Below are positions 25,607-26,458 of a stretch of 34,745 nucleotides of DNA, piece by piece. A model generated the notes under the pieces. That model was given only the letters and a program-made list of their open reading frames with translations, was not told where the DNA came from and ran no database searches. The stretch lies in the UHGV virus genome UHGV-0163337; one strand, 5' to 3'. Position numbers and translations under genes: made by a program. The DNA comes from a virus. Each line of letters opens with the position of its first letter. Within the stretch, counting starts at the first letter, position 1.

Positions 25607-26458
25607 ATGATACTTAGTTTATACATCATATTATGGATGATCATTATGTCGCGTAGCTTATACCCAACGACCTTGTTTCATTTTACTGAAAAGTTAGATA
25701 CCTTATTTGAGATACTTGACTCAAGTTATTTTCGAATTTCTTTCGCTAGAGAGTTTATACAAGGCCAGAGCACGAATAGAAATTTCGGTATACCGATGGT
25801 TTCATTTTGTGATATCAGGCTAACACAGCTTACCCAGCATACTGAAAGTTATGGCCATTATGGCATAGGATTATCAAAAGATTGGGCAAACGAAAATGGA
25901 CTTAATCCAGTAATTTACATGTCCAAGCACTCTTCTGTTTTTGATAATTATAATCTAGAGATTAGGCGTTTAAAAGCAGAAGTTAATAAGTTATTAAAGC
26001 ATTTGGACGAAATAAAATCTTCAGGAACAACATCTCAATTAACTAATGCAAAGCGGAAATATGACTCGGCGATTCTTAGTTACAAGAAAATTGTAGATCC
26101 TTTGCGATATATGAAAAATTACCAGGCAACTTTGAAACGACGCAATGGTCAGGAGAAACCTAACTATATTTTTGCAGATGAGAGGGAGTGGCGATTTGTT
26201 CCAGATATAGAAAAATCAATTGGAAAACCAGTGATCGCTGCTTCGAAAAATATATCAACTCAAGATGGCAAGAGAAAATATAACGAATATTATGATGATG
26301 ACAGGTTACCCTTTTCACATAAGGATATTAAATATGTCATTGTAGAGCATGAAAGTGATGTTGAAAAGATGATGGACTTTCTGCATATAAAGTATGGTTC
26401 AAAAAGTAGCTTGATTCCAAGGGTTCTCTCAACCGAATTGATAGCGAATGATATGTAA
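25607..26458 (+). CDS. AT-rich cargo protein of unknown function (possible Abi-like), P2 Z/fun position
   Basis: 283-aa ORF (alternative ATG 25646 would remove the hydrophobic N-terminal 13 aa); very low GC; no catalytic motif recognised by eye. Confidence 0.6.
   Translation: [283 protein letters not shown]

What the first reader, a model, noticed from the sequence alone, without database searches (positions are those of the whole stretch)
25607..26458. Unassigned 283-aa AT-rich protein at the head of the G-FI island
The first island gene has no motif I can assign. It is soluble after a possibly artefactual hydrophobic N-terminal 13 aa, with a conserved-looking N-terminal block ([20 protein letters not shown]...[12 protein letters not shown]...[24 protein letters not shown]) and a charged, helix-prone C-terminal half. 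Its position next to a protease-like gene makes it a candidate Abi protein or a sensor/partner. The start codon is ambiguous (25607 vs 25646).
Basis: inference. Interest (0 to 1): 0.6.

Follow-up and report, generated by a model that had tools for sequence, protein, structure and literature searches.

The report
Stand-alone AbiGi phage-defence gene cassette
The "unassigned" gene belongs to the known AbiGi abortive-infection family, here carried alone in a known variable slot of a P2-like prophage as its own hairpin-bounded cassette, and its fold and invariant residues suggest a DarT-like ADP-ribosyltransferase rather than the "antitoxin" of its database name.

Summary
The ORF is real, but it is not unassignable. 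It matches Pfam AbiGi (E 7e-31) and PADLOC AbiGi (1e-41), and RefSeq already names it in E. coli O166:H15 JNE21-009. The true start is ATG 25646 (270 aa); the hydrophobic 13-aa extension is an artefact.

The window is a P2-like prophage. The gene sits in the known Z-region (Z/fun) variable slot between tail genes G and FI.

It is not paired with AbiGii, and it is not a partner of the downstream M48/Lit-like peptidase:
- Both genes occur alone elsewhere.
- None of 78 genome loci has either partner within 5 kb.
- DNA homology shows two single-gene cassettes fused at a shared ~30-nt hairpin.

Most likely it is a stand-alone prophage defence or exclusion protein acting by ADP-ribosylation. That step is inferred, not shown. 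Foldseek and sequence searches do not reach ARTs, so the fold link is remote.

Verdict: a known family in a new stand-alone arrangement, of moderate interest. The hairpin-bounded cassette structure is the most unexpected by-product.

The parts
25646..26458 (+). AbiGi-family CDS, 270 aa plus stop. This is the finding, with its start corrected.
   Evidence: Pfam PF10899 E 7.4e-31. PADLOC AbiGi 9.8e-42. PGAP start and name WP_001544704.1. AF2 model pLDDT 92.6. dN/dS 0.11-0.25.
25607..25645 (+). In-frame upstream extension (13 codons) of the mechanical ORF. Not coding.
   Evidence: Not conserved in frame in Pantoea, where the ATG reads GTG and a 2-nt indel follows. Homologues start at MSRSLYP. No Shine-Dalgarno sequence is visible before 25607, while GGA lies 8 nt before 25646 (read directly).
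25568..25606 (+). Conserved non-coding block upstream of the gene. Candidate cassette-borne promoter or control region (inferred).
   Evidence: CCGCTTGCTGATGTATGG..TACTGATA..TTGATT is kept in the E. coli, Pantoea and Serratia cassettes, although the Serratia protein is only 60% identical. The consensus promoter scan of the island is not above chance, 11 sites against 11.3 expected.
25485..25511 (+). Hairpin A (core TCCGCTCTGTGCCAGGAGCGGA). Left boundary of the variable slot and of the AbiGi cassette.
   Evidence: Homology to other P2-like prophages ends at 25515-25528. Homology to the Pantoea cassette starts at 25490.
26578..26617 (.). Hairpin B (TTAGCAATGTCCGCT..AGCGGACATTACTAA). Hybrid junction between the two cassettes.
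   Evidence: 15-nt arms, 93% complementary. DNA fold -11.7 kcal/mol, z -3.4. The left arm and flank follow the Pantoea AbiGi 3' flank, and the right arm and flank follow the E. mori protease 5' flank.
26775..27779 (+). Neighbouring cassette: soluble M48-like, distantly Lit-like zinc metallopeptidase, 334 aa. Independent of the target.
27928..27954 (-). Hairpin C (TCTGCTTTGAGCGAGGAGCAGA on the minus strand). Right boundary of the variable slot.
   Evidence: Homology to other P2-like prophages resumes at 27921-27925.
28019..28049 (+). Intrinsic-terminator-like stem-loop with a T tract, in the conserved backbone before FI.
   Evidence: 9-bp stem with 7 GC pairs, followed by TTTCTTTATC.

Best explanation
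The gene encodes a 270-aa stand-alone member of the AbiGi family. It is carried as a single-gene accessory cassette, bounded by hairpins, in the Z-region (Z/fun) variable slot of a P2-like E. coli prophage.

Shown:
- Family membership.
- No AbiGii partner.
- Mobility independent of the adjacent M48-like peptidase.
- Purifying selection.
- A recurrent position in prophage accessory slots and bacterial defence islands.

Inferred:
- The protein is an enzyme with a DarT-like ADP-ribosyltransferase (ART) core.
- That core is formed by residues 1-96 and 154-190. It carries H12 on strand beta-1, S53-F-C-D on a central strand, Y69 at the end of the following helix, and E179-x-E181-W-R.
- A 57-residue helical hairpin and a C-terminal alpha/beta subdomain are added to the core. 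They are candidates for sensing or autoinhibition.
- In the lysogen the protein would stay inactive until an infecting phage supplies a trigger. By analogy with lactococcal AbiG, the trigger could be a structural protein.
- Once triggered, it would use NAD+ to ADP-ribosylate a nucleic acid or protein target. This would block phage gene expression or replication, giving abortive infection or exclusion of the superinfecting phage.
- It needs neither AbiGii nor the neighbouring peptidase.
For: Family:
- Pfam, PADLOC and PHROG hits, and the RefSeq name.
- Full-length alignment with lactococcal and enterococcal AbiGI, which sit 1-2 bp upstream of AbiGII.

Stand-alone arrangement:
- Homologues 90%, 60% and 46% identical are solo in Pantoea, in Serratia prophages and in a Pectobacterium lambdoid prophage.
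- Across 78 species-representative loci, no neighbour family recurs in more than 4 loci.
- The AbiGii HMM and phmmer searches find no AbiGii there or in the window.
- No family matches more than 3 of the 146 immediate neighbours.
- The family comprises 3,682 representative clusters, almost all 240-290 aa.

Defence context:
- Neighbours include type I R-M methylases, TIR effectors, LmuA, GmrSD and PDC candidates.
- The same prophage carries a type IV retron in its TO-region.
- The Z/fun locus is a published P2 defence hotspot (PMC13586616; PMC3091744).
- Other P2-like prophages hold an HNH-effector gene in this slot.

Enzyme and ART fold:
- AF2 model with pLDDT 92.6 and pTM 0.86.
- Across 144 representatives no more than 50% identical to one another: H12 in 138 of 138, F54, Y69, W80, Y91, K157, E181, W182 and R183 in 144 of 144, and E179 in 141 of 144.
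- Ten of 53 members give weak hits to DUF2971, an ART-like family.
- The literature lists AbiGi as an ART family related to DarT and DUF2971 (bioRxiv 10.1101/2024.07.30.605764).
- DarT1 has Ser in place of the motif-II Tyr, plus aromatic residues in beta-1 and the following helix (PMC11543638). The target shows a similar pattern.

Biology of the family:
- Lactococcal AbiG becomes toxic when the phage major tail protein is expressed (PMC12184496).
- Neither abiGi nor abiGii was toxic when expressed alone in E. coli (PMC3985639). The 'antitoxin' name therefore has no experimental basis.
Against: - No experiment exists for this clade, so defence is inferred from family and context only.
- A 2026 review reported no significant PDB hits for lactococcal AbiGi (PMC13064643).
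- I could not superpose the model on DarT, so the assignment of H12, S53, Y69 and E181 to catalytic positions is not verified.
- Canonical AbiGI has Asn at position 12, so His may not be needed for the family's function.
- A constitutively expressed ART without an antitoxin would have to be tightly self-controlled, and nothing shows how.
- No promoter was identified above chance.
- The gene is rare in E. coli, present in 1 of 5,426 complete genomes, and absent from 50,697 GenBank phage records.
Confidence: 0.55

Rival explanations
1. The protein and the downstream M48/Lit-like peptidase form one two-gene defence system. For example, the peptidase could process or activate the AbiGi protein, or AbiGi could sense infection and switch the peptidase on.
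For: The genes are adjacent, on the same strand, in one AT-rich insert. No terminator-like site with a T tract lies between them. The pair is kept together in the identical IMG/VR prophage (L101). The exact proteins are on record on 95 contigs (AbiGi) and as a cluster of 86 member sequences (peptidase). AbiGi-family genes do pair with non-AbiGii partners elsewhere: a 403-aa protein follows after 26 bp in E. coli phage-plasmids.
Against: There is a 316-bp spacer containing a strong hairpin. Canonical pairs are 1-2 bp apart. Each gene is solo in other genomes, and DNA homology ends at the hairpin. No peptidase homologue lies near 78 genome loci or 13 other viral loci. No AbiGi lies near peptidase homologues in Enterobacter, Pantoea or Vibrio.
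Confidence: 0.1
2. It is what the database name says: the antitoxin of a type IV toxin-antitoxin or Abi pair. It would neutralise a toxin encoded elsewhere, or be an orphan remnant.
For: The Pfam, PGAP and UniRef names. In Firmicutes the homologue sits directly upstream of AbiGii.
Against: No AbiGii is found in the window or in 78 loci. The name was given by analogy with AbiE. Dy et al. found neither AbiGi nor AbiGii toxic (PMC3985639). Strict conservation of an enzyme-like residue set in a solo gene under purifying selection does not fit an orphan remnant.
Confidence: 0.05
3. The ART-like core is catalytically inactive. The protein would then work as a non-enzymatic sensor or binder (of NAD+, ADP-ribose, nucleic acid or a phage protein), with toxicity arising in another way, for example through the helical hairpin.
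For: Canonical AbiGI replaces H12 with Asn yet belongs to a working system. The structural similarity to ARTs is only moderate. The long helical hairpin and C-terminal subdomain are unexplained additions.
Against: E179-x-E181-W-R, S/C53-F-C-D, Y69 and H12 are invariant across more than 140 divergent representatives. That pattern is typical of an active site rather than a binding surface.
Confidence: 0.15
4. It serves the phage in another way than defence. It could be a counter-defence or host-takeover ADP-ribosyltransferase, like T4 Alt/ModA/ModB or AcrIF11, expressed during lytic growth by read-through from the late operon.
For: The gene lies directly after late gene G, with no T-tract terminator between them. 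Phage-encoded ARTs with counter-defence roles are known (PMC12421852, listed).
Against: Many clade members sit in bacterial chromosomes among defence genes, not in phages. The family's founding member is a host defence system. The Z-region is known for exclusion genes.
Confidence: 0.1

Closest known systems
AbiG of Lactococcus (AbiGi + AbiGii; pCI750, pUCCL634D)
   Same: Homologous over the full length (27.6% identity, E 2e-12). The shared motifs are PMxxFCD, YG, DExEWR and the C-terminal D-I-[KR]-Y and D. It is carried on a mobile element. The family is linked to abortive infection and is triggered by a phage structural protein.
   Different: There is no AbiGii here or in 78 related loci. The NCBIfam AbiGI equivalog scores 58.5 bits against a cut-off of 300. 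Position 12 is an invariant His in this clade and Asn in the AbiGii-paired proteins. This protein has a longer helical hairpin. The host is Gram-negative and the carrier is a prophage.
DarT (DarTG toxin-antitoxin; ssDNA ADP-ribosyltransferase)
   Different: There is no detectable sequence similarity, and Foldseek finds nothing. No DarG macrodomain or NADAR antitoxin gene is adjacent. This protein has an extra helical hairpin and a C-terminal subdomain. Its substrate and activity are unknown.
DUF2971 (PF11185), a predicted ART family
   Same: It is the only other Pfam family hit repeatedly by clade members, in 10 of 53 with best E 0.023. The literature groups it with AbiGi and DarT and describes a conserved Tyr and an ExE motif.
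   Different: The hits are far below significance. The target itself gives no DUF2971 hit.
P2 Z/fun (the gene in the same slot of phage P2)
   Same: Same genomic position between G and FI. An AT-rich accessory gene in a slot known for exclusion or defence cargo.
   Different: No sequence comparison with Z/fun was made here. That Z/fun excludes phage T5 is from my own knowledge, not from a tool result.
Lit (e14 prophage peptidase U49). Relevant to the neighbouring gene only.
   Same: The neighbour is a soluble HExxH zinc peptidase carried by a prophage. It has weak Lit similarity: NCBIfam E 7e-5, PADLOC 0.01 and a precomputed PF10463.
   Different: It scores far below the Lit cut-off (22 bits against 274). 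It fits M48 better by sequence and by fold. It is unrelated to the target protein.

Membership tests
AbiGi protein family (Pfam PF10899) | Significant match to the family HMM above the curated cut-off | tested here: met
   108 bits against a cut-off of 22.4, E 7.4e-31. PADLOC AbiGi E 9.8e-42 over 18-259 of 260 profile positions.
AbiGi protein family (Pfam PF10899) | Full-length homology to the founding lactococcal AbiGI | tested here: met
   tblastn E 2e-12 at 27.6% identity over residues 49-267. L-INS-i alignment with shared motifs.
AbiG two-gene abortive-infection system | An AbiGii gene immediately downstream, as in Lactococcus and Enterococcus (1-2 bp gap) | tested here: not met
   The downstream gene is an M48-like peptidase 316 bp away. 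The AbiGii HMM and phmmer find nothing in the six-frame translation of the window or of the 78 loci.
AbiG two-gene abortive-infection system | Equivalog-level similarity to AbiGI (NCBIfam NF042957) | tested here: not met
   58.5 bits against a cut-off of 300.
Type IV toxin-antitoxin antitoxin (the database name) | A cognate toxin gene in the same operon | tested here: not met
   No conserved neighbour in 78 loci. None in the window.
Type IV toxin-antitoxin antitoxin (the database name) | Neutralises the toxicity of its partner | not testable with these tools
   Needs experiments. Dy et al. saw no toxicity from lactococcal AbiGi or AbiGii in E. coli (PMC3985639).
ADP-ribosyltransferase superfamily (DarT-like) | ART fold (split beta-sheet core) | tested here: inconclusive
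ADP-ribosyltransferase superfamily (DarT-like) | Catalytic triad positions ([H/R]-[Y/S]-E) conserved and lining the NAD+ pocket | tested here: inconclusive
   H12, S/C53, Y69 and E179-x-E181 are invariant or nearly so in 144 representatives. They lie on the expected kinds of secondary-structure element. No superposition or docking could be done.
ADP-ribosyltransferase superfamily (DarT-like) | NAD+-dependent transfer of ADP-ribose to a substrate | not testable with these tools
   Biochemical assay needed.
DarTG toxin-antitoxin system | An adjacent DarG macrodomain or NADAR antitoxin | tested here: not met
   The only neighbours in the insert are the M48-like peptidase and non-coding DNA. PADLOC gives no DarT or DarG hit.
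P2 Z-region (Z/fun) hotspot cargo | Variable, compositionally foreign insert between conserved genes G and FI of a P2-like phage | tested here: met
   Flanks identified. GC drops to 0.33-0.35. 1,863 E. coli genomes match some part of the 2,751-bp query, but only one holds most of it, and the listed records match just the flanks around different cargo. The slot is described in PMC3091744 and PMC13586616.

The most novel reading that the evidence does not exclude
Solo AbiGi proteins are a large, unrecognised class of single-gene antiphage effectors (about 3,700 clusters at 50% identity). They would be self-regulated DarT-like ADP-ribosyltransferases that need no antitoxin. The long-unsolved lactococcal AbiG would then be a derived two-gene version of them. 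In addition, these and other defence genes (ThsB-like TIR, PDC-S39, HNH effectors, the Lit-like peptidase) would move between P2-like prophages, other phages and chromosomes as single-gene cassettes delimited by a conserved ~22-nt hairpin that serves as the crossover point.
Probability: 0.25. Interest if true: 0.7.

Novelty: new variant of a known kind. Interest (0 to 1): 0.45.

Why it matters
AbiG has been known since 1996, and a 2026 review still lists its mechanism as unknown, with no structural relatives. This Gram-negative relative gives a confident model whose best matches are DarT enzymes. It also defines a strictly conserved residue set: H12, S53-F-C-D, Y69 and E179-x-E181-W-R. Together these turn 'function unknown' into a hypothesis that point mutants and an NAD+ assay can test.

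The survey also shows that the usual annotation ('antitoxin') and the usual detection rule (AbiGi plus AbiGii) do not describe this clade, which is stand-alone in all 78 loci examined. Defence-system finders that require both genes would therefore miss it.

Separately, the island is visibly built from two single-gene cassettes fused inside a shared hairpin. The same hairpin family brackets other defence genes in other phages. If this is general, it would explain how prophage hotspots exchange cargo.

Tried and rejected
Searches that found nothing:
- tblastn of the protein against 50,697 GenBank phage records: no match.
- Sequence profile of 53 homologues against all PDB sequences: only a chance hit.
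- A trimmed ART-core sequence against PDB: only noise.
- Foldseek of the model against PDB: nothing below E 0.39.
- The AFDB50 library was not available.
- Rfam on the island at a permissive threshold: one chance snoRNA hit.
- The sigma-70 promoter scan was not above chance, so no promoter is claimed.

Hypotheses tested and rejected:
- The peptidase as partner.
- A hidden or divergent AbiGii.
- The 403-aa partner in E. coli phage-plasmids being an AbiGii. It is not. It has only a weak HSDR_N_2 (nuclease-type) hit and a PD..ELK-like motif seen by eye.

Could not be done:
- The O'Connor 1996 and 1999 AbiG papers are not held, so what abiGi does alone in Lactococcus is unknown to me.
- Held papers do not show whether Nilsson et al. 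2004 (Mol Biol Evol 21:1) already described the hairpin repeats. That it might is only a recollection prompted by its title.
- I could not obtain a DarT sequence or the model coordinates, so no profile-profile alignment or superposition with DarT was made.

Full report
WHAT IS THERE

The window is a complete P2-like prophage. It is 100% identical over the tested 2.75 kb to the chromosome of E. coli O166:H15 JNE21-009. It runs from integrase and repressor (about 0.6-2 kb) through the replication, head, lysis and tail genes.

The finding lies in a 2.4-kb AT-rich insert (GC 0.33-0.35 against about 0.56). The insert sits between the tail-fibre assembly gene G (24900-25427) and the sheath gene FI (28143-29333). 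This is the Z-region (Z/fun slot), one of three known variable regions of P2-like phages (PMC3091744). It is also a published defence hotspot (PMC13586616).

All 1,863 E. coli genomes with a match hold some part of the 2,751-bp query. Only one of 5,426 complete genomes holds most of it. The listed records match just the flanks and carry other cargo there, for example an HNH-effector gene or a 447-aa unknown protein.

THE ORF AND ITS START

The mechanical ORF is 25607-26458 (283 aa). The real start is ATG 25646 (270 aa):
- PGAP uses it.
- Homologues begin at MSRSLYP.
- In the 88%-identical Pantoea cassette the earlier ATG reads GTG, and a 2-nt indel puts the extension out of frame. ATG 25646 is conserved in E. 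coli, Pantoea and Serratia.

The gene is under purifying selection (dN/dS 0.11, 0.15 and 0.25 against three homologues about 90% identical).

IDENTITY

The protein is not unassignable. It matches Pfam AbiGi PF10899 (E 7.4e-31), PADLOC AbiGi (9.8e-42) and PHROG 13416 (8.8e-130). It matches the NCBIfam AbiGI equivalog only weakly (58.5 bits against a cut-off of 300). RefSeq names it 'abortive infection system antitoxin AbiGi family protein'.

It aligns over its full length with genuine lactococcal AbiGI (27.6% identity, E 2e-12).

An exhaustive profile search finds 3,682 representative clusters at E up to 1e-3, and 1,091 at 1e-30. Almost all are single-domain proteins of 240-290 aa.

IS IT PART OF A PAIR?

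In Lactococcus and Enterococcus, abiGI is followed within 1-2 bp by abiGII. Here no AbiGii exists. An AbiGii HMM and phmmer searches find nothing in the six-frame translation of the window.

The downstream gene (26775-27779) is a soluble zinc peptidase:
- HEvGH, SHxRELvAD and STHP..R are invariant.
- Pfam M48 is just above its cut-off, and there is weak Lit similarity.

Four lines of evidence show the two genes are independent.
(i) AbiGi homologues 90%, 60% and 46% identical are solo. They occur in a Pantoea chromosome, at the end of Serratia prophages and in the nin region of a Pectobacterium prophage.
(ii) Peptidase homologues are solo in Enterobacter mori, next to a P2-type integrase in Pantoea, and in a Vibrio cassette array.
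(iii) Across 78 species-representative loci there is no peptidase homologue within 5 kb. No neighbour family recurs in more than 4 loci. No family matches more than 3 of the 146 immediate neighbours. Of 14 viral contigs, only the identical prophage has the peptidase.
(iv) DNA homology splits the island. Window 25490-26590 is 88% identical to the solo Pantoea locus. Window 26585-27908 is 82% identical to the solo E. mori locus.

HAIRPIN-BOUNDED CASSETTES

The two homology blocks meet inside a hairpin. Three copies of one hairpin family (TCCGCT-n3-WGCSA-n2-AGCGGA) lie at 25485-25511 (A), 26578-26617 (B) and 27928-27954 (C). That gives 6 strand-matches against 0.39 expected, and none of 100 shuffles reached 6.

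A and C belong to the P2 backbone. They bracket different cargo in another prophage.

B is a hybrid. Its left arm and flank follow the 3' flank of the Pantoea AbiGi cassette. Its right arm and flank follow the 5' flank of the E. mori peptidase cassette. The island is therefore two single-gene cassettes joined at a shared hairpin.

The same hairpin family occurs in arrays in other IMG/VR contigs, with one gene per interval. The cargo includes a ThsB-like TIR protein (E 1.8e-128), PDC-S39 (8e-103) and an LmuA-like protein. Rfam has no match. I could not establish whether this has been described before.

WHAT THE PROTEIN LOOKS LIKE

AlphaFold2 with 53 homologues gives pLDDT 92.6 and pTM 0.86. The model has:
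- an alpha/beta core made of residues 1-96 and 154-190;
- a 57-residue antiparallel helical hairpin (97-153) inserted in that core;
- a small alpha/beta C-terminal subdomain.

This agrees with the published classification of AbiGi as a poorly studied ART family related to DarT and DUF2971. It also agrees with recurrent weak DUF2971 hits in 10 of 53 members.

The link is remote, however. Foldseek finds nothing, and sequence profiles reach no solved ART. A 2026 review reported no significant hits for lactococcal AbiGi.

CONSERVED RESIDUES

Counts across 144 representatives no more than 50% identical to one another:
- H12: 138 of 138 non-gap positions.
- S53: 115, with Cys in 25.
- F54: 144. C55: 136. 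D56: 139.
- Y69, W80, Y91 and K157: 144 each.
- E179: 141.
- E181, W182 and R183: 144 each.

H12 lies on the first strand. S53-F-C-D lies on a central strand. Y69 ends the next helix. E-x-E starts a late strand. This resembles DarT1, which has Ser in place of the motif-II Tyr, aromatic residues in beta-1 and the following helix, and a catalytic Glu (PMC11543638).

The AbiGii-paired lactococcal and enterococcal proteins have Asn at position 12.

This pattern points to an enzyme. Assigning the residues to catalytic positions is inference, because no superposition could be made.

HOW IT MOST LIKELY WORKS

Shown: a stand-alone, selected and mobile AbiGi-family gene. It recurs in prophage accessory slots (the P2 Z-region, a lambdoid nin region and the end of a lysis module). 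It also recurs in chromosomal islands among defence genes.

Inferred: it protects the lysogen against other phages. It would stay inactive until a phage component triggers it. Lactococcal AbiG is triggered by the major tail protein. It would then ADP-ribosylate a nucleic acid or protein target. The helical hairpin and C-terminal subdomain are candidate sensing or autoinhibitory parts.

The 'antitoxin' label is not supported. There is no toxin partner, and neither lactococcal gene was toxic in E. coli.

My confidence by step:
- Family identity: about 0.97.
- Independence from the peptidase: about 0.85.
- Defence role: about 0.65.
- ART catalysis: about 0.5.
- Whole statement: 0.55.

NOVELTY AND SCORE

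Three things are not in the literature I could read:
- that this large clade is stand-alone;
- that a confident model points to DarT, with a fully conserved residue set;
- that the island is assembled from hairpin-delimited cassettes.

I rate it a new variant of a known kind, with interest 0.45.

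Noticed in passing
window 25485-25511, 26578-26617, 27928-27954; L002 3763-3797 and about 5843; L007 about 4808-4840; L116 1997-6087; L117, L118, L119, L121, L123, L125: A conserved hairpin family (TCCGCT-n3-WGCSA-n2-AGCGGA, often followed by AGTAGCTAA) delimits single-gene cassettes in this prophage, in Pantoea and Enterobacter chromosomes and in other viral contigs. It sometimes forms arrays with double hairpins at the junctions. Hairpin B in the window is a hybrid of two cassette ends. The cargo is often defence-type (ThsB-like TIR, PDC-S39, HNH effector). 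There is no Rfam match, and I could not tell whether it has been described before.
   Followed up: partly
window 7587-8861 (+) and 8858-9565 (+): The AT-rich TO-region of the same prophage carries a type IV retron: a reverse transcriptase (PADLOC RT_IV 7.6e-177, Pfram RVT_1 1.7e-31) and a 2TM effector (2TM_IV 5.2e-85). The msr/msd non-coding RNA was not looked for.
   Followed up: partly
window 18845-19630 (-): A 261-aa ORF in the third AT-rich island (GC about 0.41), at the position of P2 orf30 between the tail-completion and baseplate genes, on the opposite strand. It has no Pfam or PADLOC hit.
   Followed up: partly
window 26775-27779 (+): A soluble M48-like zinc peptidase with distant Lit similarity. 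Its family is small (28 homologues in Enterobacterales, Vibrio and Aeromonas). It has invariant HEvGH, SHxRELvAD and STHP..R motifs, dN/dS 0.13, and is solo in other genomes. It is a candidate single-gene Lit-like exclusion protein in its own right.
   Followed up: partly
L097 3456-5515 (E. coli plasmid NZ_CP061757.1); L108 and L109 3911-6015: In ~110-kb E. coli and Klebsiella plasmids (non-mobilizable in the one examined, L097) and in 73-102-kb IMG/VR viral contigs, an AbiGi homologue (37-38% identical to the target, His at position 12) is followed after 26 bp by a 403-aa protein. That protein is not an AbiGii. It has a weak HSDR_N_2 (nuclease-type) hit and a PD..ELK-like motif. This may be a different two-gene AbiGi variant.
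   Followed up: partly
L096 2785-3666 (Lactococcus AbiGI); L098 2932-3789 (Enterococcus AbiGi): AbiGi proteins that are paired with AbiGii have LFNFM where the stand-alone clade has an invariant LFHFT (Asn instead of His at motif I). PMxCFCD and DExEWR are shared.
   Followed up: partly
window 25568-25606: A non-coding block upstream of the AbiGi gene is conserved in the E. coli, Pantoea and Serratia cassettes, although the Serratia protein is only 60% identical. It may be a cassette-borne promoter or operator. No consensus promoter stands out.
   Followed up: no
P0152 (411 aa), P0176 (550 aa, two matched stretches), P0154 (352 aa); L085 ORF of 990 aa: A few family members are much longer than 270 aa. 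They may carry N-terminal extensions or a tandem duplication of the AbiGi domain. Some may be ORF-calling artefacts in GC-rich genomes.
   Followed up: no
L116 2211-2900 (-), also in L117, L119 and L125: A ThsB-like TIR protein (PADLOC ThsB 1.8e-128) sits alone in a hairpin-bounded cassette. No ThsA was seen among the ORFs listed beside it.
   Followed up: no
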